In this document: one piece after another, positions 31,960 to 52,256 of the stretch
Layout of the letters: each line of letters starts with the position of its first letter
How positions within the stretch are numbered: position 1 is the first letter of the stretch
NCBI GenBank assembly: GCA_035366835.1
Contig: DAOSIS010000015.1
Location: forward strand, 23,949 to 87,948
Reading direction: 5' to 3'
Source of the DNA: Syntrophales bacterium
GTDB taxonomy: Bacteria; Desulfobacterota; Syntrophia; Syntrophales; UBA6109
Length of the DNA: 64,000 bases
The notes under the pieces: model-generated
The model's input: only the letters and a program-made list of their open reading frames with translations
Database searches by the model: none
Told to the model about the DNA's origin: nothing
Made by a program: the position numbers and the translations under genes

Positions 31960-32120
31960 TCAATCCGTCATCTACAAAAAATGTAGGTAAATGACAAAAA
32001 TTAGTAGAATTCGTTTTCCAAGGAGTACGGTCGAGTTGAGGATCGGAGGGTATTCAAGACAAAAAACGTTGTAAATCAACATGTTAATCATTATATTTTG
32101 GCATTTGCTTTCCAGGATAC

Positions 32121-32136
32121 TGGCATGTTATGTGCT
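32121..32136 (+). promoter_or_regulatory. candidate sigma54 (-24/-12) promoter for the pilin genes
   Basis: TGGCATGTTATGTGCT has GG-N10-GC spacing and is close to TGGCAC-N5-TTGC. It lies in an AT-rich region about 83 nt upstream of ATG 32219. Confidence 0.55.
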
Positions 32137-32218
32137 AAAGCCAAATTCTGAAAATGGAGGAGTAGTCCATTATCGACCATCCTGCTCCGTCAGGAAAAAA
32201 CTCTGAGGAGGAAATTGT

Positions 32219-32617: not shown

Positions 32618-32658
32618 TTTAATCTACACGCGTCCACCCATCTGAGGGGGGTGGTGAA

Positions 32659-33063: not shown

Positions 33064-33100
33064 TGTTAACGGGAAACGGACAGATCGTGGTTTAGAACCA

Positions 33101-33146
33101 AGACAGGACATCGCCACCGATTAATAATTGTGGCGATGTCCTGTCT
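33101..33146. terminator. 17-bp perfect inverted repeat between convergent pilin and TPR genes
   Basis: AGACAGGACATCGCCAC - 12 nt - GTGGCGATGTCCTGTCT. The loop holds the stop codon of the minus-strand gene and the right arm encodes its last residues. Confidence 0.55.
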
Positions 33147-35115: not shown

Positions 35116-35366
35116 AAGGGGAGTCTCCCTGGCGGTTGCCGGAGACTTTATAGCGTACTCCTGCCGATTCCGCAAAATATTTGCGGAGCCCCAGGTAAGA
35201 GTTATCGTTGTTGATGGTTGCTCATCTGCCGTCGTCTGCCCTGACATTGCGTCCTGCCTTTCCTGAGAAGCAGCGCATGATTTTTCTTTTCTGAAATGTG
35301 CGGCGTTCACGGACAGGGCGCGAAAAAATAGTTTACGCGGGCACCCCTCAGCGGCTAATAAGGAGC

Positions 35367-37289: not shown

Positions 37290-37342
37290 AGGCAGGTACT
37301 CGGCCTGAGTTCTTTCAATCGCCTTGACAATGCGGGAGCGGC

Positions 37343-38914: not shown

Positions 38915-38971
38915 GATGGATTTCGAAGAAACGGCCTTCTGCAACGGCTCGTTCGACAGGCTGCTGAATCT

Positions 38972-40195
38972 ATGCGCTACGATCTCATCGTCATCGGCAT
39001 GGGGCTTTCGGGCCTGATGTCCGCGAAAACGGCGGTCGACGCCGGGGCGAAGGTCCTCGTCGTCGGCAAAGGCACGGGCGGGTTGTGCCTCTTCACCTCG
39101 GGCATCGACGTCATGGGGGCCCTCCCCGCGGGCGCGGCGATGGGGGAGGCGCTGCCGCGCTGGATCGAACGGCATCCCGATCATCCCTATGCCAAGATGG
39201 GCTGGGAGGGCGTGCGCGAGGCGCTCGAAGCCTTTGCCGAGCTTTTCCCGCCGCCCTACGGCTTCGCGCCGGAAGGCGAGGGGAACTGCCTTCTTCCGAC
39301 CGGCGCAGGGACGACAAGGCCGACCTACCTCGTGCCGGCCACGATGCGCAGTGCCTGCCGCCTGGAGAAGGAACGGACGCTCCTCGTCGGATTCCAGGGC
39401 TTCCGCGACTTCTACGCGGAGTATGCTGCGGCCGGGCTGAAGTGCCGGGGGGAGAATCTGGCGATTCCGGAGATCGCGGGCCGGAACAACTCGGCGACTT
39501 CCCTGGCGCGACTCCTGGAGGACTTGCCGTTCCGGGAGCAGGTGGCCGCGGAAATCGTCCGCCGGCTTCGGGGGGAGACCCATGTCGGTTTCCCCGCCCT
39601 GCTGGGATTCCGCAATCCCATGGAGATCCTGAAGGACCTGGAGGACCGGACGGGGACCGCGATCTTCGAAATCCCCATTCTTCCGCCTTCCGTTCCCGGG
39701 ATGCGCATCTTCCGCCGTTTCCGGCAGCATCTGATCGCGCGGGGCGCGACTTTTCTCCTCGGCAGTCCCGTCAGCCGGATCCTGCGGAACGGACCGTCCT
39801 GCACGGCCGTCGAGATCCTCCATCCTCCCGTGACGCAGGTCTATGAAGCCGATCGATTCGTCCTCGCGACCGGGCGCTTCATGGGGGGCGGGCTCTGCGC
39901 CGACGAGGAGACGATGCGTGAGCCGCTGCTGGGCCTTCCGCTTTCGGCCTCCCTGCCCCGGGAGCATTGGTTCGAGCGTTCGTTCCTGGAAGGCCGCGAA
40001 CATGCCATTCACGGCGTCGGAGTCGTGACGGACGGGGATTTGCGGCCCCTGGACGGGGCGGGGCGTCCTTACGCTGCGAACCTCTGGATCGCGGGCACCC
40101 TCCTTGCCCATCAGCGCTGGATCGATGAGAAATCCCGCGAAGGCATCGAGATCGCCACGGGATACCGGGCGGCGCGAAAGGCCCTGGCGTCATGA
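38972..40195 (+). CDS. glpB: anaerobic glycerol-3-phosphate dehydrogenase subunit B
   Basis: 407 aa. MRYDLIVIGMGLSGLMSA. Position between glpA and glpC. Confidence 0.85.
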   Translation: MRYDLIVIGMGLSGLMSAKTAVDAGAKVLVVGKGTGGLCLFTSGIDVMGALPAGAAMGEALPRWIERHPDHPYAKMGWEGVREALEAFAELFPPPYGFAPEGEGNCLLPTGAGTTRPTYLVPATMRSACRLEKERTLLVGFQGFRDFYAEYAAAGLKCRGENLAIPEIAGRNNSATSLARLLEDLPFREQVAAEIVRRLRGETHVGFPALLGFRNPMEILKDLEDRTGTAIFEIPILPPSVPGMRIFRRFRQHLIARGATFLLGSPVSRILRNGPSCTAVEILHPPVTQVYEADRFVLATGRFMGGGLCADEETMREPLLGLPLSASLPREHWFERSFLEGREHAIHGVGVVTDGDLRPLDGAGRPYAANLWIAGTLLAHQRWIDEKSREGIEIATGYRAARKALAS

Positions 40196-41406
40196 ACAGA
40201 GAAGAGTCGAAGATCGTCAATCCCGACGTCTGCATCCGGTGCGCAACCTGCATGGGGATCTGTCCCGTCGCCCGTGTGACGGCGTCCTTCCCGGGTCCGA
40301 AGCAGGCGGGGCCCGGGGCGGAGCGGTTCCGCAAGCCCGGCGATCCCTCCGTAGACGAGTGGATTCATCTGTGCATCGGCTGCCGCCTGTGCGACACGGT
40401 CTGCTCCTCCTGCGTCAACGTTTCCGAGATGAATCTCCTGGCGAAGGCGAAGTACCGGGACGAGCACGGCATGCCCCTGCGGGACTGGATGTTTGCCCAC
40501 AACTCCTTCGTTGAAAAGCTGGCCGGCCGCGTCCCCCGCCTCTCCAATGCGGTCTTGCGGAATCCGCTCGTCCGCCGTCTCCTGGACAGGCTTCTGAAGA
40601 TCGATCTCCGCAGGCCCCTGCCCGTCTATGAAGCAACGACGTTCCGGCAGTGGTTCCGGACGCACACCGGGCGCGGCGGAAAGCCGATCGGCTACTTTTA
40701 CGGCTGCTACGCCAACACCCACGAAAGGGATGTCGCCATTGCCGCCGTCCAGGTTCTGGAGGCGGCCGGCTACGAGGTCGTCATACCCCGGCAGGAATGC
40801 TGCGGCCTTCCGGCATTGGGGCAGGGAGACGTCGGGGAAGCGCGGCGGATGGCGGAAAGGAACGTCCCCTGGCTGCTGGCGGCCGTGCGCTCCGGCCTGG
40901 AGATCGTCTTCACGTCGACCAGCTGCGGCCACATGCTCAAATACGAGTACAGCCGTTTTCTGGAAATTCCCGATGCGGACGAGGTGGCGCGCCATCTTCA
41001 CGAACTGTTCGATTATCTGCGCGACCTCCAGGGAAAGGGACAGTTCGACGTCCGCTTCCGTTCCCGGCCGCTCCGGGCCGCGTACTTTGCCCCCTGCCAC
41101 CTGCGGTCGTTGCAGATCGGCTTCCCGTCCCTCGATATCCTGCGGCGGATTCCCGAACTGCAGATCGAGATGGTGGACGCCGATTGCTGCGGCATGGGCG
41201 GCCTCTACGGATTCAAGAAGGAAAAAGCCCCGATCGCGGACGCGATCGGGGCCGACCTGACGAAGGCGGTGGAGCGCCTGAACGTGGAGATGGTGCTGAC
41301 GGAATGCGAAGGGTGCCGCATGCAGATCCAGCGCCTGACGGGCCTCAGGACCCTGCATCCGATCCAGATCGTCCGGGACGCGTTGGAGCCGGGGGCCGGC
41401 AACTGA
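40192..41406 (+). CDS. glpC: anaerobic glycerol-3-phosphate dehydrogenase subunit C (2x4Fe-4S plus CCG domains)
   Basis: 404 aa. CIRCATCMGICP and CIGCRLCDTVC ferredoxin motifs. CCG motifs (QECCGLP, ADCCGMGG). Confidence 0.9.
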   Translation: MNREESKIVNPDVCIRCATCMGICPVARVTASFPGPKQAGPGAERFRKPGDPSVDEWIHLCIGCRLCDTVCSSCVNVSEMNLLAKAKYRDEHGMPLRDWMFAHNSFVEKLAGRVPRLSNAVLRNPLVRRLLDRLLKIDLRRPLPVYEATTFRQWFRTHTGRGGKPIGYFYGCYANTHERDVAIAAVQVLEAAGYEVVIPRQECCGLPALGQGDVGEARRMAERNVPWLLAAVRSGLEIVFTSTSCGHMLKYEYSRFLEIPDADEVARHLHELFDYLRDLQGKGQFDVRFRSRPLRAAYFAPCHLRSLQIGFPSLDILRRIPELQIEMVDADCCGMGGLYGFKKEKAPIADAIGADLTKAVERLNVEMVLTECEGCRMQIQRLTGLRTLHPIQIVRDALEPGAGN

Positions 41407-41465
41407 GGAGAAAGTCATTTGAACGGTCTGTCCGAGGCTTGGCGCAGCCATGAAACGTCGCGGAG

Positions 41466-42188
41466 GTGCTCGTGAAACGCATCCGTTCCGTCCTGCTTCA
41501 CCTGTTTCTTCTCCCGGCCGTCGCCCTTTCCGTGGGCGGCTGTTCCCTTTCTCATCCGTTCTCGGCGCAGGACGCGGCCGCTCTTCTGGCGTCGACGCCG
41601 CGGGTTCCGGAGAACACCGGTCAGGCCCTTTTTGCCGGGGAGGAAAGGTTCCTCTTCCGGAGGCAGATCAAGGTCTACGCGCTGGAGAAACGCGATGCGA
41701 CCTGGAGGCCGGCCTTCGGACCGATCGATGCCGTCATCGGTCGTAACGGTTTCGCGCCCGCCGGGGAAAAGAGGGAGGGGGACGGGCGGACGCCGTCCGG
41801 CATCTTTCCTCTGAAACTGGTTTTCGGTTACGAAGAGAAGTCCCGAACCAGGATGCCCTACCGCCAGGCCCGGGACGAGGACCTGTGGGTGGATGACCCG
41901 GAATCGCCCGATTACAACCGCTGGGTCGCAAAGGGAGGGACGACCGCCGCCTCGTTCGAGAAGCTCAGGCGCGACGACGACCTTTACAGGTATGCGATCG
42001 TCATCGGGTACAATACCGACCCGGTCGTCAAGGGACACGGCAGCGCGATCTTCTTCCATGTGTGGAGGGGGCGCGGCTCATCCACGGCCGGATGCGTCGC
42101 CGTCGCGGAGGAAGACCTCCTGAAGATTCTTGCCTGGCTGGAACCCGACGCCAAGCCGGTCATCGTCATGGGGACGGATTCGCCATGA
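41466..42188 (+). CDS. L,D-transpeptidase (YkuD) family protein
   Basis: 240 aa. Signal peptide. Catalytic region GSAIFFHVWRGRGSSTAGCVAV. Confidence 0.85.
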   Translation: MLVKRIRSVLLHLFLLPAVALSVGGCSLSHPFSAQDAAALLASTPRVPENTGQALFAGEERFLFRRQIKVYALEKRDATWRPAFGPIDAVIGRNGFAPAGEKREGDGRTPSGIFPLKLVFGYEEKSRTRMPYRQARDEDLWVDDPESPDYNRWVAKGGTTAASFEKLRRDDDLYRYAIVIGYNTDPVVKGHGSAIFFHVWRGRGSSTAGCVAVAEEDLLKILAWLEPDAKPVIVMGTDSP

Positions 42189-42304
42189 ATCCGGCAGCGC
42201 CCGCATCCCCCGCGGCTTGCCGCGGGGGATGCGGGCGAATGATGTTCAAAATCCCTTCCTTGGGGATCGAAGATTTTCCGGAGCTTACTCCGGAGAGCTT
42301 CAAA
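42186..42304 (+). repeat. intergenic repeat element copy A (18-bp-stem hairpin plus conserved 3' box)
   Basis: CGCCCGCATCCCCCGCGG-CTTG-CCGCGGGGGATGCGGGCG, followed by GAAT..TGTT..ATCCCTTCCTTGGGGATCGAAGATTTTCCGGAG...TCCGGAGAGCTTCAA. Near-identical copy at 51070..51175. Confidence 0.6.
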
Positions 42305-42426
42305 CCGGCAGCCCCTTTGAGCCGGGCAAACCCGGGTCAAGGGGGCGAAGAAAGACAAGACATTTTCCCTGTGGATCGAGTATCCTCCGGAGCTTTCTCC
42401 GGGGAGCTGTAAAGGAGGCAACACCG

Positions 42427-43194
42427 ATGCAACGGAAATCTCTCTTTGTCCTGTGCCTTGTCCTGTTCTGCGGCTTTCTGCCTCCGGCGCCCGTTGTCCC
42501 GGGGGCCGAGAAGATGCCGCCCGGCTTCGTCGATGTCGCGAGCGTCGTTCCTTCGGCGCTTCTGGAGATCCGCTACTACGGCGAGCACAACTTCGTCGGC
42601 CGGCCGGTGGACGGCTACCGGGCGCCGAAGTGTCTGCTGACACGCCCGGCGGCCGAGGCGCTGGCGAAGGTTCAGGCGGACCTGGCGCCTTTCTCCATGA
42701 CCCTCAAGATCTACGACGGCTATCGCCCGCAGGCCGCGGTCGACCACTTCGTGCGGTGGGCCAGGGAACTCGGCGACGTGCGCACGAAAAAGGAGTTCTA
42801 TCCCACGGTCGACAAGGCCCATCTCTTCCGCGACGGTTATATCGACAGCCGTTCGGGGCACAGTCGGGGCAGCACCGTCGATCTGACGATCGTCCCTCTG
42901 CCGGTCCCGTCCCAGCCGGCTTACGTCGGGGGTCAGCCGCTCGTTGCCTGCTATCGGCCGGCCGGCGAACGCTTCGCGGACAACAGCATCGATATGGGCA
43001 CAGGCTTCGATTGCTTTCACGAGCTGTCGCACCCGGAGAACCCGGGAATCGGCCTGCAGCAGAGGATCAACCGGCTTCTGCTCAAGACGCTCATGGAGAA
43101 GCACGGCTTCCGCAATTACGACAAGGAATGGTGGCACTTCACGCTGAAGAACGAACCCTATCCCGACAGATACTTCAACTTTCCCGTCGAGTAG
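42427..43194 (+). CDS. D-alanyl-D-alanine dipeptidase (VanX/DdpX, M15D)
   Basis: Internal Met (MQRKSLFVLCLVL..., SD AAGGAGG) of ORF 42130..43194. LEIRYYGEHNFVGRPVDGY, SGHSRGSTVDLT and EWWHFTL motifs. Confidence 0.85.
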   Translation: MQRKSLFVLCLVLFCGFLPPAPVVPGAEKMPPGFVDVASVVPSALLEIRYYGEHNFVGRPVDGYRAPKCLLTRPAAEALAKVQADLAPFSMTLKIYDGYRPQAAVDHFVRWARELGDVRTKKEFYPTVDKAHLFRDGYIDSRSGHSRGSTVDLTIVPLPVPSQPAYVGGQPLVACYRPAGERFADNSIDMGTGFDCFHELSHPENPGIGLQQRINRLLLKTLMEKHGFRNYDKEWWHFTLKNEPYPDRYFNFPVE

Positions 43195-43259
43195 GGACGG
43201 CTCGGCGGCCTTCCGCGGATCCGCCCCGGGGACGGAGGAAAGCGAAGGGAAGCAAAATC

Positions 43260-43288
43260 TTGACTTTCGAACCCGTTCATTTTAAGGT
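43260..43288 (+). promoter_or_regulatory. candidate sigma70 promoter of the ABC/Slam operon
   Basis: TTGACT, 17 nt, TAAGGT. About 315 nt upstream of the SBP start. Confidence 0.3.
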
Positions 43289-43603
43289 TCGCCTGTCTTG
43301 TCGGCAGAGAATACAATCACGCAGCGCGGCTCCGATGGTTTCCGAAGCGACGATACCGATGATGCGCTCATTCTGTCCAGAGAGATCCTCCATTCCGTCC
43401 GTATCCGCGGGTCCTGTTTCGTTTTCATCCACCACCAGCAAAGGGCGGCGTCTGCCCTGTTCCTGGCGCCCGGCATGGGCGGTCCCCGATGCCGGGAAGG
43501 CGGCAGGCGGCCGTTGGCGGTGCGTCCAGGCGAGAGGGGAAAGGGAAACGGGGAATCGAGAAAAGCAGCCCAACATTTAGATAGAATGAAGGAGGGGAGA
43601 ATC

Positions 43604-44731
43604 ATGAAACGTTTTGTGTGGATGTTGGCCCTGTGCGTATTGGCCCTGTTCTGTTTCAGCGGCACCGGCTTCGCCCAGGCCGTTGAGAACGAACTGTACT
43701 TGATCACGCCCGTCTCAAAGGACGTCCATGATCCGGTGCTGAAGGCGTTTGCCGGCTATGCGAAGAAGAAGTGGGGCATCGACGTGAAAACGAGTGCCAT
43801 GCCCAAGGGCACCCCCGTCGCTTACGGACAGATCGTGGAGTGGAAGGGAAGGCCCCAGGCGGACGTCTTCTGGGGCGGCGAAGGGACGCTCTTCGACAAC
43901 CTCGCCAAGCAGGACTTGCTCGATAAGATCCAGGTGCCGGACAAGATGTGGAACGAGATCCCCGCCGAGATCGGCAAGCCCGTCGGGCTCCCGCTGAAGG
44001 ATCCCAAGAAATTCTGGGTCGGGACGATGCTCGAGCCCTACGGCCTGATCTATCAGCCGAAGCTTCTGAAGCGCCTCGGCGTCGTCATCAAGGACTGGGA
44101 CGACCTCCTGAATCCGAAACTGAAGGGGCAGATCGCGCAGTGCACGCCGGACCGTTCCAGCAGCAGCCATGCCTCCTATGAGGTCATCCTCGCCATGCAC
44201 GGCTGGGAGAAAGGCTGGCAGTGGTTGACGAAGCTGGCGGCCAACACGGGGATCTTCACGGCCCGTTCCCGCGACGTTCCGAGCGTCGTGTCCAAGGGGG
44301 AATTCGCCGTTGGATTCGCCGTGCCGAGCTACATGGCCTTCGCGGAAGCCCTCGGCGGATACGACGTCATGTACGTCTATCCGAAGAACGCCTACGTGAC
44401 GCCGGAGCCCATGGCCGTGCTCAAGGGAGCCCCCCATCCCAAGGCGGCCCACGCCTTCATCGAATTCCTGCTGACGGAAGAGGGCCAGCAGCTGGTCTCC
44501 CAGCTCGGCGTCTATCCCATCACCCCCAAATACAAAGTCCAGGGTCCTCCGGGGTCCAACCAGGAGAAGGCCGTGGCCTTCACGGGCGGCATGAGGTCTT
44601 TCTTCGACATCGAGGTCGGCAACGTCTACAACGACGAGATCGCCGGACCGAAGAAGCGCATCGAAGAAGTGAACTCCTATTTCCGCAAGGAAATCGCAGA
44701 AAAGCACAAGGACATCGTCAAGCAGAAATGA
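43604..44731 (+). CDS. ABC transporter periplasmic substrate-binding protein (Fe3+/AfuA-FbpA-like family)
   Basis: Internal Met (MKRFVWMLALCVLALFCFSGTGFA, SD GAAGGAGGGG) of ORF 43298..44731. Confidence 0.8.
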   Translation: MKRFVWMLALCVLALFCFSGTGFAQAVENELYLITPVSKDVHDPVLKAFAGYAKKKWGIDVKTSAMPKGTPVAYGQIVEWKGRPQADVFWGGEGTLFDNLAKQDLLDKIQVPDKMWNEIPAEIGKPVGLPLKDPKKFWVGTMLEPYGLIYQPKLLKRLGVVIKDWDDLLNPKLKGQIAQCTPDRSSSSHASYEVILAMHGWEKGWQWLTKLAANTGIFTARSRDVPSVVSKGEFAVGFAVPSYMAFAEALGGYDVMYVYPKNAYVTPEPMAVLKGAPHPKAAHAFIEFLLTEEGQQLVSQLGVYPITPKYKVQGPPGSNQEKAVAFTGGMRSFFDIEVGNVYNDEIAGPKKRIEEVNSYFRKEIAEKHKDIVKQK

Positions 44732-44751
44732 CGTCCGAAGACGTTCCATGA

Positions 44752-44795
44752 GGGACTCCCTGAAAGCGGCGCTTTCAGGGAGTCCCCTTTGTCTT
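44752..44795 (+). terminator. intra-operon hairpin / partial terminator after the SBP gene
   Basis: GGGACTCCCTGAAAGC-GGC-GCTTTCAGGGAGTCCC, a 16-bp perfect stem followed by CTTTGTCTT. Confidence 0.55.
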
Positions 44796-44821
44796 CAGCC
44801 TGCAACGAATCGGGTTCGACT

Positions 44822-45928
44822 ATGAATATTCAACTGAAGGACATGGTGAAGCGTTTCGGCGCCCTGGAGGCGGTGAGTCACGTTTCGCTTGACATCAAGG
44901 ACGGTGAGCTCTTCACGCTGCTCGGACCCTCCGGGTGCGGCAAGACGACGATCCTCCGTCTCATCGGCGGCTTTCACCGGCCCGATTGCGGAGAGATCTA
45001 CTTCGGGGACAAGGAGGTCTCGGACATTCCGCCCTACGAGCGGAACATCGGCATGGTTTTTCAGAACTACGCCCTGTGGCCCCACATGACGATCTTCGAG
45101 AACGTCGCCTACGGACTGAATATCCAGAAGAAGGTGCCGAAGAAGGATGTCGCCGAGAAGGTCAACTCGACGCTGTTGCTGGTCAATCTCACGGGCCTGG
45201 AAAAACGCTTTCCGGGCCAGCTTTCGGGGGGACAGCAGCAGCGCGTTGCCCTGGCAAGGGCCCTCGTCCTCAATCCGGACGTCCTCCTGCTCGACGAGCC
45301 GCTGTCCAACCTCGACGCCAAAATCCGGCAGCAGGTCCGTGCCGAAATCCGGAAACTCCAGAAGGAACTGGCCATCACCTCCATTTACGTGACCCACGAC
45401 CAGGAGGAGGCCCTTACCCTTTCCGACCGGATCGCCGTCCTGGATCACGGGAAGATTCAGCAGATCGGTTCCCCGCACGACCTTTACGAGCGGCCGGGGA
45501 ATCCCTTCGTCGCCGATTTCATCGGCATCAACAACCTGATCCCCGGCGACGTCCGGGAGATTCTCGAAACGCAGGGCCTGCTGGCCGTTTCGACCCGTTT
45601 CGGCTCGTTCCGCTGCGTGAACGAGGGCCTGCTGGAAAAGGGCGATCCCTGCAGGATCTGCGTACGCCCGGAAACCGCCTCCATCGGTTATGACGCAGCG
45701 CCGCAGGAGGGCCTCAATACGCTGGCGGGAAAAGTCAGTTTCGCCTCCTATATCGGGAACGCCATCCGTTACGACATCGAACTCGATCCCGAGACCATCT
45801 TCAAGGTGGACGTGCAGAATCCCTGGCACCAGCAGGCATTTCCGGTCGGCGAGAAGATCTTCGTGCGCTTCCCCGTGCAGATTACGCGGGGCATTCCCGT
45901 CCGAGATTCGAGAGGACTCCACACGTGA
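44822..45928 (+). CDS. ABC transporter ATP-binding protein (PotA/FbpC type)
   Basis: MNIQLKDMVKRFG.... Walker A GPSGCGKTT, signature LSGGQQQR, Walker B LLLDEP. Confidence 0.9.
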   Translation: MNIQLKDMVKRFGALEAVSHVSLDIKDGELFTLLGPSGCGKTTILRLIGGFHRPDCGEIYFGDKEVSDIPPYERNIGMVFQNYALWPHMTIFENVAYGLNIQKKVPKKDVAEKVNSTLLLVNLTGLEKRFPGQLSGGQQQRVALARALVLNPDVLLLDEPLSNLDAKIRQQVRAEIRKLQKELAITSIYVTHDQEEALTLSDRIAVLDHGKIQQIGSPHDLYERPGNPFVADFIGINNLIPGDVREILETQGLLAVSTRFGSFRCVNEGLLEKGDPCRICVRPETASIGYDAAPQEGLNTLAGKVSFASYIGNAIRYDIELDPETIFKVDVQNPWHQQAFPVGEKIFVRFPVQITRGIPVRDSRGLHT

Positions 45929-47640
45929 AGAGCATGTCGTCAACCGTTGCCCTGCCCAAAACCCGCTTTCTGGAGAACGTGACATTCGGAGGCTTGGCAG
46001 GCTATGCCGCCATCTGGCTCTTTTTCCTGGTTTTTCTCATCTATCCGCTGATCCGCCTCTTCTACGACAGCTTCACGACGGACGACGGCGTCTTCACGCT
46101 CGCCAATTTCCAGGATTTCTTCACGGACCGGTACTACCTGAAGTCGTTGATGAACTCTCTCGTTCTGGGCGTCGCCACGGTGGTCACGACGTCGGTCATC
46201 GGGATCGCCATCGCCTTCCTTCTCCTGCGCTACGACTTCCCCGGCCGCGGGCTCTTCTCGTATCTGACGATCATTCCGATGATCATGCCGCCCCTGGTCG
46301 GCGTCATGGGATTCGTCTTCATCATGGGCCGGGCCGGAACGGTCAACATCATCCTCCAGGATTATTTCGGTCTTCAGCAGCCCATCAATTTCATGTACGG
46401 CATCCACGGCGTTCTGCTCGTCGAGACGCTCCATCTCTTTCCCCTCATGACGCTCTCCATCGTGGACGCCATGGGGAAGATCTCCCCCTCGCTCGACGAG
46501 GCCGCGGAGAGCGTCGGATCCCGGGGGTTCCGGAAATTCTGGGACATCACCTTTCCCCTGACGACGCCGGGCTACGTCTCCGGGGCGCTCCTCGTTTTCA
46601 TCTGGACCTTCGCGGATTTCGCAACGCCGCTCGTTGTCGGGGTCGACGACCTGCTGGCCTCCCAGGCCTACCTGAACATCGTCCAGTTCGTGGACCGGCG
46701 CCTCTTCAAGATGGGGATCGTCATCTCGGCCATCATGGTCATTCTCGCGATCCTCTTCCTCATCATCGCGAAGAAGTACGTGTCCCTCAAGGATTACAGC
46801 TCCCTGAGCTATTCCGTGATCGAGCGGAAGAAACTCTCGCCGCTCGCGCAGGTCGGCGCGGTCCTTTTCCTGTCGCTGATCCTGCTTCTGGCTTTCATTC
46901 CCTATCTGGGGATTGCCTTGGATTCATTCGGGAAGGGGTGGGCCCTGACGCCCTTCCCCGTGAAATACACGCTCCAGTACTTCCAGCGGGTCGCGTTCGA
47001 AACGCCCAAGTTCATCCTCAACAGTCTCCTCTTCTCCGGCATCTCGGTGCTGATCTGCATCGTCGTCGGCGTGCCCGTGGCCTGGGTCATGGCGCGGACG
47101 AGGCTGCCGGGGAGGGACGTGCTGGACTCCCTGACGACGCTGATCCTGGCGCTGCCGGGCACCGGCATCGGCATCGCCTACATGCGGGCCTTCCGGGAGC
47201 CGTTCCCGTTCATGGAGACGGCGCTGATCGGCATGTGGATCATTATCCCGATCGTCCTAGGGGTCCGGCGCCTTCCCTACACCGTGCGGGGGACCTTCGC
47301 CTCGCTCCTCATCGTCCACAAGTCTTTCGAGGAGGCGGCGGAAAGCGTGGGTGCCACGAAGTCGAAAACCTTCAAGGACGTGACGCTGCCGCTGATCTGG
47401 AAAGGGGTGCTCGTCGGGTCGCTCTACTCGTTCATCCTCGCCCTGCAGGAGGCATCGGCCGCCCTGCTGCTCGTCGTTCCCGGCCACGAGATGATGACGG
47501 TGGGCATCTTCAACTTCTACATCGGCGGTTCCGTGAACGAGGCGGCCGCCCTGGGTTTCATTCTGATCATTCTGGGGGCGCTGTGCCTTCTGGTCATCAA
47601 CCGCCTGGCAGGTTCCAAGATGGGCGGCGTCTTCGGCTAG
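45925..47640 (+). CDS. ABC transporter permease, duplicated two-domain type (FbpB/ThiP-like)
   Basis: 571 aa polytopic protein. 4-nt overlap with the ATPase gene. Confidence 0.9.
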   Translation: MKSMSSTVALPKTRFLENVTFGGLAGYAAIWLFFLVFLIYPLIRLFYDSFTTDDGVFTLANFQDFFTDRYYLKSLMNSLVLGVATVVTTSVIGIAIAFLLLRYDFPGRGLFSYLTIIPMIMPPLVGVMGFVFIMGRAGTVNIILQDYFGLQQPINFMYGIHGVLLVETLHLFPLMTLSIVDAMGKISPSLDEAAESVGSRGFRKFWDITFPLTTPGYVSGALLVFIWTFADFATPLVVGVDDLLASQAYLNIVQFVDRRLFKMGIVISAIMVILAILFLIIAKKYVSLKDYSSLSYSVIERKKLSPLAQVGAVLFLSLILLLAFIPYLGIALDSFGKGWALTPFPVKYTLQYFQRVAFETPKFILNSLLFSGISVLICIVVGVPVAWVMARTRLPGRDVLDSLTTLILALPGTGIGIAYMRAFREPFPFMETALIGMWIIIPIVLGVRRLPYTVRGTFASLLIVHKSFEEAAESVGATKSKTFKDVTLPLIWKGVLVGSLYSFILALQEASAALLLVVPGHEMMTVGIFNFYIGGSVNEAAALGFILIILGALCLLVINRLAGSKMGGVFG

Positions 47641-47703
47641 AATGCGTCCGACGTCCTTCACGCACGGCTCTGCAAGCCCGCAACCTTCCGGAGGGTTCCG
47701 ATA

Positions 47704-49149
47704 ATGAGCGAAAGACTTTCTGCCTTCTTCTCCTTCCCAGGACTGATCCTCGTCGCATTGCTGGTCTTGACGCTCCCGCCGGCGCCAGCCTGCGTCCAGG
47801 CGCAGCCTCCGTCCGAAACCGGCAGCGCGGGCGGAGAGGTGGACTTCAGGACCGCGAACAAGGAGGCCATCGAGAAGCTGCGCAAGCTGCCGCCGGAAAA
47901 GATCGCCAGCCTCGACGAAAAACTCGCCGAGGCCCTGACCCTCTATTACGACGGGAAGTTCGCCCAGGCCCTGCCCATCTTCAACATGATCTCCGCCGAC
48001 GTGGAGACCATGGACATCATGTGGTGGCTGGGAACGAGCGCGATGAACGTCGGGGAGACGCGCCTCGCCGTGCAGAAATTCCAGCAGATGCTGGCGATCG
48101 ATCCCTCGCTGCACCGCGTCCGTCTCGAACTGGCCGCCGCCTATTTCCAGTTGAAACAGTACGAGGACGCCCGCCGTGAGGCGGAGGCGGTCAAGAATGC
48201 CCGGCCGCCGGAAGCGGTGGTCCGGAACATCGACAAACTCCTCGCGGCGATCGAGGAGAGCACCAAGACCCTCTACTGGAACGTGCGCTTCTCTCAGGGG
48301 ATTCAGTGGGACAGCAACATTTCCAGCGGCCCCGACCAGAAGGTGCTCAATGTGACGGGAGGAACCCTGACCCTCAACAACGACACGGCGGAGATCGGTG
48401 ACTGGGCGTCCATCACGAACTTCTCGGGGAACGTCCTGTACGACTTCGGCCGGAAGCAGGGCTTCATGTGGAATACGACGGCCGATCTCTACAACCAGTT
48501 CTACTTCCACAACGGCAAGTACAACTACAGCCTTGCGGATGTCTCGACAGGGCTCTGGTGGGTCGGACCCAGGGATATCCTGAAACTTCCCCTGGGTATG
48601 GCCAAGCAGGAGTTCGGCAGCGACCCGCTGTCCACCATCTATCACGTCAAGCCGAGCTGGGAGCACTACTTCACCCCCGGCTTCAGCGTCAAGGCCCTGT
48701 ACGCGTACAGCAACGAGCGCTTCATCGATGTGGAATACGATGATCAGGACAATGTCACGAACCGCTTCGAAATTACGCCGAACTTCTATTTCCTGAACCG
48801 GCGGCACATCGTTTCGATCAGCGGCGGCTACGAAAGATCCGCCGCGGACGCCCGGCGCTTCACCTACACGGCCCCCTACGGCGCCGTCTCCTACTATACG
48901 CGCTTTCCCACCAACACGGACCTTTTCCTGCGTTACCAGTATTCGAACCGGGATTACAAGGCGGCGCCCCTGCTCTACTCGGAAGATCGTGTCGACCGGC
49001 GCCACGCCTTTTCCATCGCCCTGAGCCAGGAGTTTCTGAAGCACTTCTTCACCTCTCTGGCCTTCAATTACATCGACAACCACTCGAATCTCGAACTGTA
49101 CGCTTTCCGAAAGCAGACCTACACACTCAGCTTCGGATTCTATTTCTGA
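47704..49149 (+). CDS. Slam-like outer-membrane protein (N-terminal TPR plus DUF560-type beta-barrel; type XI secretion-like)
   Basis: 481 aa. Signal peptide. TPR-like segment (LTLYYDGKFAQALPIF...AAAYFQLKQYEDA). Alternating-pattern barrel ending in the OMP C-terminus YTLSFGFYF. Confidence 0.7.
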   Translation: MSERLSAFFSFPGLILVALLVLTLPPAPACVQAQPPSETGSAGGEVDFRTANKEAIEKLRKLPPEKIASLDEKLAEALTLYYDGKFAQALPIFNMISADVETMDIMWWLGTSAMNVGETRLAVQKFQQMLAIDPSLHRVRLELAAAYFQLKQYEDARREAEAVKNARPPEAVVRNIDKLLAAIEESTKTLYWNVRFSQGIQWDSNISSGPDQKVLNVTGGTLTLNNDTAEIGDWASITNFSGNVLYDFGRKQGFMWNTTADLYNQFYFHNGKYNYSLADVSTGLWWVGPRDILKLPLGMAKQEFGSDPLSTIYHVKPSWEHYFTPGFSVKALYAYSNERFIDVEYDDQDNVTNRFEITPNFYFLNRRHIVSISGGYERSAADARRFTYTAPYGAVSYYTRFPTNTDLFLRYQYSNRDYKAAPLLYSEDRVDRRHAFSIALSQEFLKHFFTSLAFNYIDNHSNLELYAFRKQTYTLSFGFYF

Positions 49150-49167
49150 TTTTTCCGGGAGGTCACC

Positions 49168-51018
49168 ATGAACCGACGCATGCCCGTCCTGATCGTTCTC
49201 GCCGCAAGCCTGGCACTTCTTTGCTGTGCATGGCAGGTTGCCGACACTTTTGCCGCCGAGAAGAGCAGAGGCCATGCCGTTCCGGCGAGCCTCCTTCCCC
49301 GGGAGCTGAAGAACGTCGACGTCAAGGACCATTTCATCCCCGCAGGCACGAAGGCGGTCGGGGTGATCCAGTCCGTCATCGCCCATGTCGTCGTGGCCCG
49401 CAGGGATCTCGGCCAGGCCTACTATGCGGCCGACGGGGACAGGCTCTTTGAACAGGATGTGGTCTTCACATTGAAGGACTCCAAATGCCGCATCAAGCTC
49501 GCCAACGACGACATCATCACCGTGGGCGACAACAGCCGCCTGGCCGTCAACGAGATGACGGGCGACCGGAAGACCCCGGAAAAGAAATCGGTTCTGGAAC
49601 TGGCGCGCGGCAAGGCGATGTTCTATGCCATCCGCCTCCTCAACCACAAGAGCGCGACCATGAACGTGGTGAGCCCGACGGCCGTTACCGGCGTCCGGGG
49701 AACGAAATTCGGCATCGAAGTCACCGTGACGAACGAGACGGCGGCCGCCGCGCAGCCGATTCTTCTGGCCGACGCCTCCGCCGACTGGGGGCGACATCTC
49801 ATCCTCGCGCAGGCCGCGCCGTTGCCGGGAGTCACGACGGTCGTCCACGGATTTGAAGGCACCGTGGTGGTCACATCGACCGTCGACGGCAGGACGCAGA
49901 CCGTCGGCGCCGGGCAGACCTTATCGACCACACCGCAGGGCATCGGGGCGCTGATCCCGACGCCTCCGCAGGTTTCCCAGAGCTTCCAGTCCGCCACGAA
50001 TGTCCCGCCGCCGCAAGGGGCCGGAGGTGCCGGCGGCACGAGCGGCGGTCAGACCGGCGGCCAGAGCCAGGGCACGGCCGGCGGCACCGGGACGACGACC
50101 GCGACCACGACAACCTCCACCGAAACATCGCCGCCGCTGGTGGATACTTCGAGCGTGACGCAGACGCAGAGCACCAGCCAGACCGAACAGGCGGCAACGC
50201 AGACGGACCCCGTGACGGATCCGAAGACCAATGCCTCGGGCGGCCATACGGGCTATTTCGCGGGGATCCTCACCAACCTTTCTAAGGCGGGGATACAGGA
50301 CGTCTATGTCAGCCGGAACCGCTACGACGGCGACAGCAGCGTCTGGGGCAGGGGGCTCCTGAGCGCCCTGGATTATCTCCGTGTCGAGGGCGGCGGAAAG
50401 TTCGGGAACCCCACCCTGAAATGGGCCGAGCTCTTCGGTGCGACAAAATCTTCCGGGCCGCTCACGGTTCCCGTATCCTGCACAATCATGGGTACCTATA
50501 CCGACGGGTACGGCGGGCAGTACCTGGAATGGGGCTATGCCACGATTCCGTCCTTTGCGGTCGGCACGGAGAACTACGCCGTGGACAACCGGGCCTACTA
50601 CATCTTCGGCCAGAGCACGACCTCCGCCGACCTCATGAGCCTTACGGGAACGGCGATCTATTCGGGGGACGCCTTCGGGACCTACTGGACCTCCTCGGGC
50701 GGCGTGAACATGTCCGGCAGCTTCTCCTGTGACGTCAATTTCGCGACCAAGGCCGTGTCCGGCTTCAACCTCGGCGTATCGGGCTCCAATGTCTCCGCCG
50801 GGATCTCCGGCGCAAGCGGAACGATCGGCAGCGACGCGCACTTCCAGCTGACCGGCGGGACCTGGAGCCTCAACGGCACGACCCCCGCGAACACCAACGC
50901 CGGCGGCTCCCTCTACGGGCCGTCCGGCAGCTACATCGGCGGCCCCTGGGGAATGTCCACGAACGATGCGGCCGCCGCAGGCATCTACAAGGGGATAAAA
51001 AGCGGCGGGCCCTACTGA
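49168..51018 (+). CDS. exported FecR-domain protein with T/Q/G-rich linker and TbpB-like C-terminal beta-barrel (putative Slam cargo)
   Basis: 616 aa. FecR-like block (...ITVGDNSRLAVNEM...ARGKAMFYA...VVSPTAVTGVRGTKFGIEV). C-terminal pattern YSGDAFGTYW...GSFSCDVNFATKAVSGFNLGV...GGSLYGPSGSYIGGPWGM...AAGIYKGIK is collinear with TbpB/fHbp-type barrels. Confidence 0.7.
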   Translation: MNRRMPVLIVLAASLALLCCAWQVADTFAAEKSRGHAVPASLLPRELKNVDVKDHFIPAGTKAVGVIQSVIAHVVVARRDLGQAYYAADGDRLFEQDVVFTLKDSKCRIKLANDDIITVGDNSRLAVNEMTGDRKTPEKKSVLELARGKAMFYAIRLLNHKSATMNVVSPTAVTGVRGTKFGIEVTVTNETAAAAQPILLADASADWGRHLILAQAAPLPGVTTVVHGFEGTVVVTSTVDGRTQTVGAGQTLSTTPQGIGALIPTPPQVSQSFQSATNVPPPQGAGGAGGTSGGQTGGQSQGTAGGTGTTTATTTTSTETSPPLVDTSSVTQTQSTSQTEQAATQTDPVTDPKTNASGGHTGYFAGILTNLSKAGIQDVYVSRNRYDGDSSVWGRGLLSALDYLRVEGGGKFGNPTLKWAELFGATKSSGPLTVPVSCTIMGTYTDGYGGQYLEWGYATIPSFAVGTENYAVDNRAYYIFGQSTTSADLMSLTGTAIYSGDAFGTYWTSSGGVNMSGSFSCDVNFATKAVSGFNLGVSGSNVSAGISGASGTIGSDAHFQLTGGTWSLNGTTPANTNAGGSLYGPSGSYIGGPWGMSTNDAAAAGIYKGIKSGGPY

Positions 51019-51069
51019 CGGCCGGCCCGGGATCTCCGAGACCTGAAAGCCGCAGTTTTCGGCCGGTGT

Positions 51070-51175
51070 TGAATCCAGTAGAGAGCGCATTCCCCGCGGC
51101 TTGCTGCGGGGGATGCGAGCGAATCCTGTTTGAGATCCCTTCCTTGAGGACCGAAGATTCTCCGGAGAGCTTCAA
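51070..51175 (+). repeat. intergenic repeat element copy B
   Basis: GCATTCCCCGCGG-CTTG-CTGCGGGGGATGC (two G-U wobbles relative to copy A), then GCGAAT..TGTT..ATCCCTTCCTTGAGGACCGAAGATTCTCCGGAGAGCTTCAA. Confidence 0.6.
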
Positions 51176-51190
51176 TTTTGCCCAACGGGC

Positions 51191-51228
51191 GGATGTCCTG
51201 TATCAGCGGCGGGGCATCCGTTTTTTTT
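51191..51228 (+). terminator. intrinsic terminator after repeat copy B
   Basis: GGATGTCC-12 nt-GGGCATCC (8 bp including one G-U), followed by G and a T8 run (51221-51228). Confidence 0.55.
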
Positions 51229-51416
51229 CAGCGGTAAGTCCTCCATTTCCTCTCTGTGCAATGTCTCACGTCATGCACGTTTCTTCCCCTCCCATCCGAC
51301 GCCTGCTTCCGAATCAGATGTACAGGAGGACGCCTCGCAGAGTGAAGGCCCGGCCGATGGTGTGGCGGGTACATCATCGGCAGCCTGGGGAGAGGCAGGC
51401 GAGTGTCGGAATGGGC

Positions 51417-52256
51417 TCAGAAGAAGGCGAAATAAAGCGCACGGGCGGACGCCCAGGCGAGCACGGCGGCGTTCACGACCACGGCCGCCGAAGAGAGGAT
51501 CCTGTGGAGGGCTGTTTCGGACCGTTTCTCCTCGTATCCGGCGAGGAGTCCGATCAGAATGCCCGCTGCGATGCCGCCGCCGTGGGCCCAGTTGTTGATG
51601 CCCGGGAAGACGAGCCCGAAAAGGGCGAGACCGACGATCCATCCCATCGCCTGACGGTAGACCGCCTGGCCGTAGAATCCTCCGCGGCTCTTGCCGTAGT
51701 ACAGAATCGCGCCGATGAGGCCGCAAACGGAGGCGGAGGCGCCGATCGTAAAGGGTATCCCCGCCGGCAGCGACACGGCGAACCCGGCCACGCCGCTCAG
51801 GAGATAGATCAAGAGGAACCGGGCCGTCCCGTATTCCTGCCGGACGAAGGGGCCCAGCTGGTGGAGGGCCATCATGTTGAAGACGATGTGGAGGATTCCC
51901 CCGTGGAGAAAGGACGCCGTCAGCAGCGTCCACCATCGCCCGTACCCTTCGACGGGGATCGTGCCCGTCGCCCCGAGGACGAAGAGGCTGTTCGTCGTCG
52001 GCGAGAGGAACGTGAGGGGATTCATGGAGAAGCCGGCGCCCATCGGATTGAGGAGCAGTGAAAGGAGATAGCAGGCGGCGTTCACGCCGATGAGAATCCG
52101 CACGGGATCCAGATCGGTGTACCGGCCGGCGAGCAGCAGGCGCCGGAATCCCGAAGAGGGATTCTTCATGCCGCAATAAGGGCAGACCGGTTCGCCGGCG
52201 CTCAGGAGCCTGCGGCAGTTGGGGCACAAGAAGGAGGTTCGCCGGCGGTCGTTCAT
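51417..52256 (-). CDS. rhomboid-family intramembrane serine protease with N-terminal zinc ribbon
   Basis: 279 aa. CPNCRRLL...CPYCG. HGGILHIVFNMMAL. Catalytic GASASVCG and a downstream HGGGIAAG. Confidence 0.85.
   Translation of the reverse strand: MNDRRRTSFLCPNCRRLLSAGEPVCPYCGMKNPSSGFRRLLLAGRYTDLDPVRILIGVNAACYLLSLLLNPMGAGFSMNPLTFLSPTTNSLFVLGATGTIPVEGYGRWWTLLTASFLHGGILHIVFNMMALHQLGPFVRQEYGTARFLLIYLLSGVAGFAVSLPAGIPFTIGASASVCGLIGAILYYGKSRGGFYGQAVYRQAMGWIVGLALFGLVFPGINNWAHGGGIAAGILIGLLAGYEEKRSETALHRILSSAAVVVNAAVLAWASARALYFAFF

What the first reader, a model, noticed from the sequence alone, without database searches (positions are those of the whole stretch)
43604..51228. Fe3+-type ABC importer operon extended by a Slam/DUF560 (type XI secretion-like) protein and its putative cargo
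- Five co-directional genes with short gaps or overlaps: SBP, ATPase, duplicated permease, a 481-aa TPR plus beta-barrel OMP (C-terminal ...YTLSFGFYF), and a 616-aa exported protein whose C-terminus is collinear with TbpB/fHbp-type 8-strand barrels.
- In Neisseria-type systems, Slam sits next to the surface protein it translocates. Iron then enters through a TonB-dependent receptor and FbpABC.
- Here the importer and the Slam/cargo pair appear fused into one transcription unit, with only a partial hairpin after the SBP gene and a terminator only at 51191-51228. No TonB-dependent receptor is present in the window.
- This arrangement, in a high-GC and apparently anaerobic lineage, suggests a ligand-capture system different from the characterised transferrin/haem systems.
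Basis: partly seen in the sequence, partly recalled or inferred. Interest (0 to 1): 0.8.

Follow-up and report, generated by a model that had tools for sequence, protein, structure and literature searches.

The report
Slam secretion pair beside unrelated importer
A Syntrophaceae genome carries a genuine Slam-type (type XI) outer-membrane secretion gene and a new kind of exported cargo protein, but their position behind an ABC importer is peculiar to this one lineage and gives no sign of a shared iron-capture system.

Summary
The five co-directional genes exist as described.

**Slam/cargo pair**
- Gene 4 (47704-49149) passes both Pfam Slam models and models as a TPR domain plus a 14-strand barrel.
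- Gene 5 (49168-51018) is a Sec-exported protein without a lipobox. It has a FecR-fold N-domain, a 60-residue disordered linker and a C-terminal handle plus 8-strand barrel.
- Its best structural matches are TbpB, NHBA, fHbp and HphA, which are surface or secreted proteins of Neisseria and Haemophilus, several of them proven Slam cargo.
- In 78 related loci from Thermodesulfobacteriota, Slam lies directly upstream of this cargo in 60.

**ABC importer linkage**
- The importer is adjacent only in the window's own species group.
- None of 25 informative loci carrying the orthologous importer has Slam or cargo.
- Sister species keep a 305-375 nt spacer with a promoter-like site before Slam. The window lineage lacks it.

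**Iron**
- The binding protein resembles AfuA/P5PA, which bind phosphate esters, and lacks two of the three FbpA iron ligands that could be aligned.
- There is no Fur box and no TonB-dependent receptor in the window.

**Verdict:** two independent modules placed side by side. The novelty is a FecR-effector cargo class for an uncharacterised type XI branch in anaerobes. It is not a fused capture-and-import system.

The parts
43604..44731 (+). Periplasmic substrate-binding protein (375 aa) of the FbpA/AfuA/PhnS2 group. Substrate unresolved, and probably not Fe3+.
   Evidence: Pfam SBP_bac_6/8/11/1. Best solved relatives are P5PA 6wce (5.7e-16) and AfuA 4r72 (2e-15), then HitA/FbpA. Aligned to HitA, the 'NNYYW' motif reads 'VPSYM' and 'YTEE' reads 'WGGE'.
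44752..44786 (+). Perfect 16-bp stem-loop after the SBP gene, with a T-poor tail. Likely an attenuator or mRNA-stabilising hairpin.
   Evidence: sequence read.
44822..45928 (+). ABC ATPase (368 aa) with a C-terminal TOBE_2 domain.
   Evidence: Pfam ABC_tran and TOBE_2. Nearest NCBIfam models are PhnT2, PotA and others, all below their cut-offs.
45925..47640 (+). Fused two-domain ABC permease (571 aa).
   Evidence: Two BPD_transp_1 stretches. Nearest NCBIfam model is PhnU2, with ModB-like halves, all below cut-off.
47641..47703 (+). 63-nt permease-to-Slam spacer. It lacks the 305-375 nt promoter-bearing segment present in the sister species.
   Evidence: Alignment A4. L081 has the same short gap. 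The promoter-like site is at L001 8331-8359.
47704..49149 (+). Slam-like type XI secretion outer-membrane protein (481 aa): signal peptide, periplasmic TPR domain (aa 49-187; nt 47848-48264) and 14-strand barrel (aa 190-480; nt 48271-49143).
   Evidence: PF04575 and PF24575 both above their gathering scores. AlphaFold2 model with pLDDT 87.4. Nearest solved folds are TPR-plus-barrel exporters and the barrels CymA and OmpG, which I know as 14-stranded.
49168..51018 (+). Predicted type XI cargo (616 aa): Sec signal peptide without a lipobox, FecR-fold N-domain (aa ~50-280; nt 49315-50007), disordered S/T/G/P-rich linker (aa 284-343; nt 50017-50196), handle (aa 361-481; nt 50248-50610) and 8-strand barrel (aa 495-612; nt 50650-51003).
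   Evidence: Pfam FecR. Model. Foldseek matches to TbpB, NHBA, fHbp, HphA and PupR. Family profile against the PDB hits only TbpB. Signal-peptide inspection.
51187..51223 (+). Intrinsic-terminator-like hairpin followed by a T-run, ending the gene row.
   Evidence: sequence read.

Best explanation
Two independent modules lie head to tail.

**Module A (43604-47640)** is an ordinary three-gene ABC importer: binding protein, ATPase and fused permease. It belongs to the FbpA/AfuA/PhnS2 group. Its ligand is most likely a small anion such as a phosphate ester, not ferric iron.

**Module B (47704-51018)** is a type XI (Slam) secretion pair.
1. Both proteins are exported by Sec.
2. The Slam-like protein inserts into the outer membrane as a 14-strand barrel, with a periplasmic TPR domain.
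3. The cargo carries no lipid anchor. Slam recognises it through its C-terminal handle and 8-strand TbpB-type barrel and moves it across the outer membrane.
4. Outside the cell, the conserved FecR-fold N-domain sits on a flexible linker and acts as the effector. It is probably a binding or sensing module.

**The juxtaposition** of A and B is specific to this species group. In the window lineage the promoter-bearing spacer before Slam is missing, so B may now be transcribed by read-through from A.

**Shown:** domain content, predicted folds and patterns of gene neighbourhood.
**Inferred:** secretion itself, the role of the effector domain and co-transcription.
For: **Slam and cargo identity**
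- Both Slam Pfam models pass their cut-offs. The model has 9 helices plus 14 long strands at pLDDT 87.
- The cargo's C-terminal lobe has pLDDT above 90.
- Apart from one PupR match to the N-domain, the 50 listed structural matches are TbpB, NHBA, fHbp and HphA, surface or secreted proteins of Neisseria and Haemophilus that include proven Slam cargo. NHBA gives TM 0.74.
- A profile of the cargo family against the PDB hits only TbpB. 7 of 14 family members hit Pfam TbpB_B_D.

**Linkage**
- Slam lies directly upstream on the same strand in 60 of 78 non-redundant cargo loci. 12 loci carry two or more cargo copies.
- ABC genes are adjacent only in L001/L002, L004 and L081.
- None of 25 informative orthologous ABC loci has Slam or cargo.
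- Sister Syntrophaceae place Slam-cargo between yciO and skp instead.
- A promoter-like site sits in the spacer before Slam in sister species and is absent here.

**Cargo anchoring and importer substrate**
- There is no conserved lipobox. A conserved A-x-A / ENRG site fits signal peptidase I.
- The binding protein is nearest to P5PA and AfuA, and two aligned iron ligands are replaced.
- No Fur-box-like site and no TonB-dependent receptor.
Against: - No experiment shows secretion.
- No Slam structure is solved, so the barrel's nearest solved folds are generic barrels and TPR-barrel exporters.
- The window protein alone falls below the Pfam cut-offs for TbpB_B_D and FHBP_C.
- In the window lineage the 63-nt gap has no terminator, so real co-expression with the importer is possible, and it could have become functional.
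- 9 of 78 cargo loci with enough flanking sequence have no adjacent Slam.
- The importer's ligand is not identified.
Confidence: 0.72

Rival explanations
1. One reading: one integrated capture-and-import system. The Slam-exported protein captures a ligand (iron or another nutrient) outside the cell and passes it to the adjacent ABC importer without a TonB-dependent receptor.
For: - The five genes are co-directional, with a 63-nt gap and no terminator between the permease and Slam in the window and in an independent MAG.
- Known Slam cargo often serves nutrient capture.
- The type XI literature speculates about links to cobalamin or molybdopterin uptake.
- Orthologous ABC operons lie near molybdenum-cofactor biosynthesis genes.
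Against: - The adjacency is confined to one species group. None of 25 informative ABC loci has Slam or cargo, and only 2 of 78 non-redundant cargo loci (both close relatives of the window) have ABC genes.
- Sister species have a separate promoter-like site before Slam.
- There is no route for a captured ligand across the outer membrane.
- The binding protein lacks two aligned iron ligands, and no Fur-box-like site is present.
Confidence: 0.07
2. The FecR-fold protein is not secreted. It works in the periplasm as a sensing partner, for example of CHASE2-domain receptors or of the outer-membrane protein's TPR domain. The barrel protein then serves as an anchor or signal entry point.
For: - The FecR fold matches the periplasmic signalling domain of PupR.
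- A CHASE2 cyclase gene lies convergently downstream of the cargo in 10 Desulfobacterales loci.
- FecR-domain plus CHASE2 kinase operons are described in Burkholderia.
- The N-domain is better conserved than the C-lobe in 33 of 41 loci.
Against: - The C-terminal handle and 8-strand barrel is the hallmark of type XI cargo. It can occur in up to 6 copies, typical of surface proteins.
- No ECF sigma factor, anti-sigma domain or transmembrane segment is present.
- No CHASE2 gene is in the window.
- Leptospira FecR-domain proteins (Lsa33, LipL45), which NCBIfam names a surface adhesin and a lipoprotein, are the nearest named families.
Confidence: 0.12
3. The outer-membrane protein is a TPR-barrel polysaccharide exporter of the PgaA/BcsC/PelB kind, and its position next to the FecR protein is coincidental.
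For: The top Foldseek matches are BcsC and PelBC. PgaA (4y25) is also listed.
Against: - Both Slam-specific Pfam models pass their cut-offs.
- The barrel is about 290 residues with 14 strands. The TM-scores normalised to the target are highest for OmpG (0.66-0.75) and CymA (0.54-0.56) and low for BcsC (0.32) and PelBC (0.38).
- The gene lies directly upstream of a cargo gene with a TbpB-type barrel in 60 of 78 loci.
- No polysaccharide synthase genes are adjacent.
Confidence: 0.03

Closest known systems
Neisseria Slam1/Slam2 with TbpB, LbpB, fHbp or HpuA (surface lipoprotein assembly modulators; type XI secretion)
   Same: - Outer-membrane protein with an N-terminal TPR domain and a DUF560 barrel.
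- Cargo gene adjacent.
- Cargo ends in a handle and an 8-strand TbpB-type barrel. Longer homologues have two or more lobes, as TbpB does.
   Different: - The cargo has no lipobox.
- No TonB-dependent receptor partner is present.
- The N-terminal effector is a FecR fold.
- The host is a free-living strict anaerobe (Syntrophaceae), not a bacterium of animal mucosa.
HrpB/HrpC, HsmA/HphA and Hpl (type XI secretors of soluble hemophilin-type cargo)
   Same: Soluble, Sec-dependent, non-lipidated cargo that is secreted through its C-terminal barrel. HphA appears among the fold matches.
   Different: - There is no haem-binding clamp domain.
- The cargo is twice as long, with a separate FecR-fold domain and a 60-residue disordered linker.
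- No haem oxygenase, TonB or receptor genes are nearby.
NHBA (GNA2132) C-terminal barrel
   Same: Best single-domain match by sequence (E = 5e-5) and by fold (TM 0.74, rmsd 4.0 Å).
   Different: From my own knowledge, NHBA is a lipoprotein with a disordered, arginine-rich heparin-binding N-region. It has no FecR domain and no handle domain.
FecR/PupR anti-sigma regulators, and the Leptospira FecR-domain proteins Lsa33 (named a surface adhesin) and LipL45 (named a lipoprotein)
   Same: The N-domain hits Pfam FecR above its cut-off. It superposes on the PupR periplasmic domain (TM 0.54). NCBIfam Lsa33 gives E = 1.5e-11.
   Different: - No cytoplasmic anti-sigma domain and no transmembrane helix.
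- No ECF sigma factor or receptor partner.
- The NCBIfam scores are far below the Lsa33 and LipL45 cut-offs.
AfuABC / P5PAB and FbpABC importers
   Same: - Gene order and a fused two-domain permease.
- The binding protein has the same fold family and the 'ADV(F/W)xGG' motif of AfuA and P5PA.
   Different: - AfuA His205 and Thr60 are replaced.
- FbpA Tyr195 and Glu57 are replaced.
- All NCBIfam equivalog scores are far below their cut-offs.
- The ligand is unknown.

Membership tests
Type XI secretion system / Slam outer-membrane protein | DUF560 (SlipAM, PF04575) barrel domain | tested here: met
   44.4 bits against a gathering score of 22, covering aa 192-481 on profile positions 1-288 of 288.
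Type XI secretion system / Slam outer-membrane protein | N-terminal periplasmic TPR domain | tested here: met
   PF24575 TPR_Slam at 38.9 bits against 35.2. The model has 9 helices over aa 49-187.
Type XI secretion system / Slam outer-membrane protein | 14-stranded beta-barrel | tested here: met
   The secondary-structure assignment of a pLDDT 87 model gives 14 long strands, counting 307-324 as one kinked strand. TM-scores normalised to the target are highest for OmpG (0.66-0.75) and CymA (0.54-0.56), which I know as 14-strand barrels. This rests on a prediction only.
Type XI secretion system / Slam outer-membrane protein | Adjacent gene for a Sec-exported cargo with a C-terminal 8-strand TbpBBD or lipoprotein-C type barrel | tested here: met
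   The model shows 8 strands over aa 495-612 at pLDDT above 90. Foldseek matches TbpB, NHBA, fHbp and HphA. The family profile hits only TbpB in the PDB. The adjacency holds in 60 of 78 loci. The window protein alone is below the Pfam cut-offs.
Type XI secretion system / Slam outer-membrane protein | Cargo reaches the surface or the medium only when the Slam protein is present | not testable with these tools
   Needs co-expression and localisation experiments.
TbpB-type surface lipoprotein (transferrin/lactoferrin receptor component) | N-terminal lipobox cysteine | tested here: not met
   No lipobox in the window protein. Only 5 of 30 family members have even a loose match. A conserved A-x-A / ENRG signal peptidase I site is present instead.
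TbpB-type surface lipoprotein (transferrin/lactoferrin receptor component) | Partner TonB-dependent receptor encoded nearby | tested here: not met
   No such family hit among any window ORF of 450 aa or more. No recurrent receptor-sized gene appears in 78 related loci.
FecR-type anti-sigma regulator (cell-surface signalling) | Cytoplasmic anti-sigma domain, one transmembrane helix, periplasmic FecR domain; adjacent ECF sigma factor | tested here: not met
   Only the FecR domain is present (aa 98-185). The N-terminus is a cleavable signal peptide. No sigma factor gene recurs in the neighbourhoods.
FbpABC ferric-iron importer | Binding protein with the His9/Glu57/Tyr195/Tyr196 iron site. Ligand identities come from established knowledge of H. 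influenzae FbpA. | tested here: not met
   In the alignment to HitA, 'NNYYW' reads 'VPSYM' (first Tyr to Ser) and 'YTEE' reads 'WGGE' (Glu to Gly). The His position lies outside the aligned stretch.
FbpABC ferric-iron importer | Iron-responsive regulation (Fur box) | tested here: not met
   The best match upstream of the SBP gene or Slam is 10 of 19, which is background level for this window. The Fur motif of this lineage is not known, so this is a weak test.
AfuABC / P5PAB phosphate-ester importers | Ser/Gly/Thr phosphate-binding motifs and ring-binding Tyr103/His203-205 | tested here: inconclusive
   A Ser-rich motif 'DRSSSSHAS' aligns with AfuA 'DPQSSGTAY', and 'ADVFWGGEG' aligns with 'ADVWYGGTL'. 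However, AfuA His205 aligns to Ser and Thr60 to Glu.

The most novel reading that the evidence does not exclude
Two readings remain open.

**A new cargo class.** The FecR-fold proteins with handle-barrel lobes are the missing cargo of an uncharacterised, deltaproteobacterial branch of type XI secretion. That branch is listed under what appears to be cluster 7 in Table S1 of Grossman et al. 2021. This would be a new class of secreted or surface proteins in strictly anaerobic, free-living Thermodesulfobacteriota, which display a signalling-type FecR domain outside the cell. In some lineages it may be coupled to CHASE2 cyclases or carry sugars on its Ser/Thr-rich linker.

**The boldest version.** In the window's lineage the pair has been recruited, by loss of its own promoter, into the transcription unit of an anion importer, giving a receptor-independent capture-and-import system. 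I put this boldest version at about 0.05. The probability given here is for the new cargo class being truly Slam-secreted.
Probability: 0.55. Interest if true: 0.6.

Novelty: new variant of a known kind. Interest (0 to 1): 0.45.

Why it matters
- Type XI secretion has been studied almost only in host-associated Proteobacteria, where it exports iron-, haem- and host-factor-binding proteins. Nine of the ten sequence clusters of its outer-membrane component have no characterised member, and only clusters 1 and 3 have had cargo predicted.
- This locus and its roughly 80 relatives give a concrete, testable cargo for one of those clusters.
- They show that the TbpB-type barrel serves as an export tag well outside animal-associated bacteria, in syntrophic and sulfate-reducing anaerobes.
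- They show that a FecR fold, known as a periplasmic signalling module, can be the exported effector.
- The case also warns that gene adjacency within one lineage, here with an 'Fe3+-type' importer, can suggest a system that comparative data do not support.

Tried and rejected
- **Rfam.** A scan of 41000-52000 at E ≤ 1 gave only a chance snoRNA match. No riboswitch lies in the 409-nt leader of the SBP gene.
- **Fur box.** Nothing above background.
- **TonB-dependent receptor.** None found in any window ORF of 450 aa or more.
- **Fold search of the Slam model.** It cannot confirm Slam membership, because no Slam structure is in the PDB. It returned generic barrels and TPR-barrel exporters.
- **Pfam TbpB_B_D and FHBP_C.** Both are below their cut-offs on the window protein. 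A family profile was needed to reach TbpB by sequence.
- **Mobile-island idea.** A 98-nt repeat flanks the block, but it is absent from sister species that have the same gene order. This idea was rejected.
- **Molybdate/tungstate as the importer's ligand.** This was suggested by neighbouring moaA, moaC, mog and moeA genes. It is not favoured, because no ModA, WtpA or TupA structure appears among the binding protein's PDB relatives. It is not excluded.
- **Classical FecR cell-surface signalling.** Rejected, because there is no anti-sigma domain, transmembrane helix or sigma factor.
- **Promoter scan of the window.** No + strand site was found anywhere in 43000-51600, so it says nothing about an internal promoter here.
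Full report
**1. The observation**

ORF listing and family scans confirm five co-directional genes on the + strand.

| Gene | Coordinates | Product |
|---|---|---|
| 1 | 43604-44731 | substrate-binding protein (SBP) |
| 2 | 44822-45928 | ABC ATPase with a TOBE_2 tail |
| 3 | 45925-47640 | fused two-domain permease |
| 4 | 47704-49149 | 481-aa TPR-plus-barrel protein ending YTLSFGFYF |
| 5 | 49168-51018 | 616-aa exported protein |

- The gaps are 90 nt, -4 nt, 63 nt and 18 nt.
- A perfect 16-bp hairpin with a T-poor tail follows the SBP gene (44752-44786).
- A hairpin plus T-run at 51187-51223 ends the row.
- GC content is 60-65%.
- The closest relatives are genomes assembled from metagenomes (MAGs) labelled Syntrophaceae/Syntrophales.
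- Upstream lie genes resembling the glycerol-3-phosphate dehydrogenase genes glpA, glpB and glpC, then a YkuD gene and an M15 peptidase gene.

**2. The Slam-like gene**

- Gene 4 passes both Pfam models that define Slam. SlipAM/DUF560 scores 44.4 bits against a cut-off of 22, over the full profile length. TPR_Slam scores 38.9 against 35.2.
- An AlphaFold2 model built on 38 homologues has mean pLDDT 87.4. It shows nine helices (aa 49-187) followed by 14 long strands (aa 190-480).
- The PDB holds no Slam structure, so the fold search cannot confirm membership. It returns TPR-plus-barrel exporters (BcsC, PelBC) and barrels such as CymA and OmpG, which I know as 14-stranded. OmpG gives target-normalised TM-scores of 0.66-0.75 and CymA 0.54-0.56.

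**3. The cargo**

- Gene 5 has a signal peptide without a lipobox. Most of the 30 family members lack a lipobox as well. Most of them share an A-x-A / ENRG motif that fits signal peptidase I.
- Pfam finds a FecR domain at aa 98-185 (34.4 bits against 24).
- The model shows four regions:
  - a beta-rich N-domain, aa ~50-280;
  - a disordered Ser/Thr/Gly/Pro-rich linker, aa 284-343, with pLDDT below 50;
  - a handle, aa 361-481;
  - an eight-strand barrel, aa 495-612. The handle and barrel together have pLDDT above 90.
- Apart from one PupR hit, the 50 listed Foldseek matches in the PDB are TbpB, NHBA, fHbp and HphA. These are surface or secreted proteins of Neisseria and Haemophilus, and several are experimentally proven Slam cargo. 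TbpB gives 7.8e-8, and the NHBA C-domain gives TM 0.74 at rmsd 4.0 Å.
- The N-domain matches the periplasmic signalling domain of the anti-sigma regulator PupR (TM 0.54, rmsd 3.4 Å).
- By sequence, the window protein reaches NHBA at E = 5e-5.
- A profile of 14 family C-lobes hits ten TbpB sequences and nothing else at E ≤ 0.01.
- 7 of 14 members hit Pfam TbpB_B_D, although the window protein alone stays below the cut-off.

**4. What is conserved**

- A scan of one genome per prokaryotic species, using the cargo alignment, returned 77 loci. By record title, all that name a lineage are Syntrophales, Desulfobacterales, Desulfatiglandales or Desulfatibacillaceae; the rest carry only broad labels such as Deltaproteobacteria or Proteobacteria.
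- Among 78 non-redundant cargo loci:
  - Slam is directly upstream on the same strand in 60;
  - Slam is within 3 kb upstream in 3;
  - Slam is divergent in 2;
  - Slam is absent despite enough flanking sequence in 9;
  - 4 cannot be judged.
- Twelve loci carry two or more cargo copies.
- Many homologues are about 870 aa and carry two handle-barrel lobes, as TbpB does.
- An exhaustive search of 1.84 billion representative proteins with the C-lobe finds only 199 clusters at E ≤ 0.001. Some have 4-6 lobes. 7 of 9 sampled members start with a FecR domain.
- The N-domain is better conserved than the C-lobe in 33 of 41 loci.

**5. The link to the importer**

- ABC genes accompany Slam-cargo only in the window's nearest relatives. 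These are L001/L002 and L004 (cargo 79-81% identical) and L081, an independent MAG that is 97-99% identical.
- In more distant Syntrophaceae, the pair sits between purE/yciO and skp/DUF3426/hpt.
- The reverse test used 80 metagenome loci with SBP orthologues at 80-88% identity. Of these, 25 have at least 1.5 kb of sequence beyond the permease. None contains Slam or cargo.
- In those loci the operon is followed by a HAD-IIA hydrolase (29 loci) and a PiT phosphate transporter (15). It is preceded by a metallophosphoesterase (11) and by divergent moaA, moaC, mog, moeA and MOSC genes (16-27 loci). glpA- and glpC-like genes lie nearby in 9-10 loci.
- In sister species L001 and L004, the permease-to-Slam spacer is 305-375 nt long. 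It contains a conserved TTGACA-N17-TA(A/G)ACT site. This is the only + strand promoter-like site in the 8.4 kb scanned.
- The window and L081 lack exactly this segment, which leaves 59-63 nt and no terminator. Co-transcription is therefore plausible here, but it is confined to the window lineage rather than a general property of the system.

**6. Iron**

- The SBP's best solved relatives are P5PA (which binds pyridoxal phosphate) and AfuA (which binds sugar phosphates). HitA/FbpA come next.
- In the alignment to HitA, the Tyr-Tyr iron ligands read Ser-Tyr and the Glu reads Gly. The 'ADVFWGGEG' motif follows the AfuA/P5PA pattern. The identity of the ligands rests on established knowledge of FbpA.
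- A review warns that AfuA-type proteins have been mislabelled as iron binders.
- No Fur-box-like site lies upstream of the SBP gene or Slam.
- No TonB-dependent receptor is encoded in the window.
- The ligand remains open. A phosphate ester is my first guess, and molybdate or tungstate is a weaker alternative.

**7. Comparison with the literature**

- Slam homologues were reported in all proteobacterial classes, including delta.
- The Grossman et al. 2021 network table lists DUF560 proteins from Ca. Magnetomorum and Syntrophorhabdus under what appears to be cluster 7. Nine of the ten clusters have no characterised member.
- The 2025 cargo survey covered only clusters 1 and 3. It describes about ten cargo architectures, none with a FecR domain.
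- In the hemophilin papers, FecR appears only as a neighbouring regulator gene.
- The Slam-cargo pair is therefore a new variant of a known system. It has a new effector domain, no lipid anchor, no receptor partner, and a host that is an anaerobic, free-living lineage.

**8. Verdict**

- The Slam/cargo reading is supported.
- The fused importer-plus-capture reading is not supported by comparative data, and the iron label is unsupported.
- The most likely mechanism is Sec export followed by Slam-dependent translocation of a soluble FecR-effector protein. The neighbouring importer works independently.

Noticed in passing
window 42186-42283 and 51070-51167: A 98-nt direct repeat, 84% identical, brackets the M15 peptidase, ABC, Slam and cargo genes. 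Each copy folds into a long GC-rich hairpin (MFE -61.7 and -38.0 kcal/mol). The downstream copy is also present in L081 (8243-8372). The repeat is absent from sister species L001 and L004, and it matches no Rfam family.
   Followed up: partly
window 37343-41406: Three genes resembling the anaerobic glycerol-3-phosphate dehydrogenase genes glpA, glpB and glpC (DAO plus BFD; FAD_binding_2; Fer4_8 plus CCG) lie upstream. glpA- and glpC-like genes also lie near orthologous ABC operons in 9-10 metagenome loci. This hints at a phosphate-ester ligand.
   Followed up: partly
L082-L161 (orthologous ABC loci): The conserved neighbours of the ABC operon are a HAD-IIA hydrolase and a PiT transporter downstream, and divergent moaA, moaC, mog, moeA and MOSC genes upstream. 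These suggest either organophosphate or molybdenum/tungsten metabolism.
   Followed up: partly
window 32000-37300: This is a low-GC stretch (53-55% against about 64%). It holds a multi-pass membrane protein with TPR repeats (33121-35373, - strand) and a Wzy_C-plus-TPR protein (35298-37289, + strand). Homologues of the first lie within a few kb downstream of cargo genes in 12 other loci, in some of them with GT1 glycosyltransferase genes. A link to glycosylation of the Ser/Thr-rich cargo linker is possible but speculative.
   Followed up: partly
L023, L025, L027, L028, L032, L033, L043, L049, L063, L075: A CHASE2 plus adenylate/guanylate cyclase gene lies downstream of the cargo gene, on the opposite strand in nine of these ten loci. 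FecR-domain plus CHASE2 kinase operons are described in Burkholderia (PMC5192318).
   Followed up: partly
L031, L053, L056, L058, L076; protein P0182: A 180-aa OmpA-family gene sits between Slam and cargo in five loci. One representative protein (P0182) fuses OmpA, FecR and a handle-barrel lobe.
   Followed up: no
L003/L008, L005, L007, L009: A skp (OmpH) chaperone gene directly follows the cargo gene(s) in these Syntrophaceae loci. Skp has been implicated as the periplasmic holdase for Slam cargo. The linkage may simply reflect shared ancestry of closely related genomes.
   Followed up: no
proteins P0154, P0155, P0156: Giant family members of 1421-1973 aa carry one FecR domain followed by 4-6 handle-barrel lobes.
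   Followed up: partly
window 26190-28832 (- strand): An 880-aa protein with BACON domains. It is unrelated to the finding.
   Followed up: no
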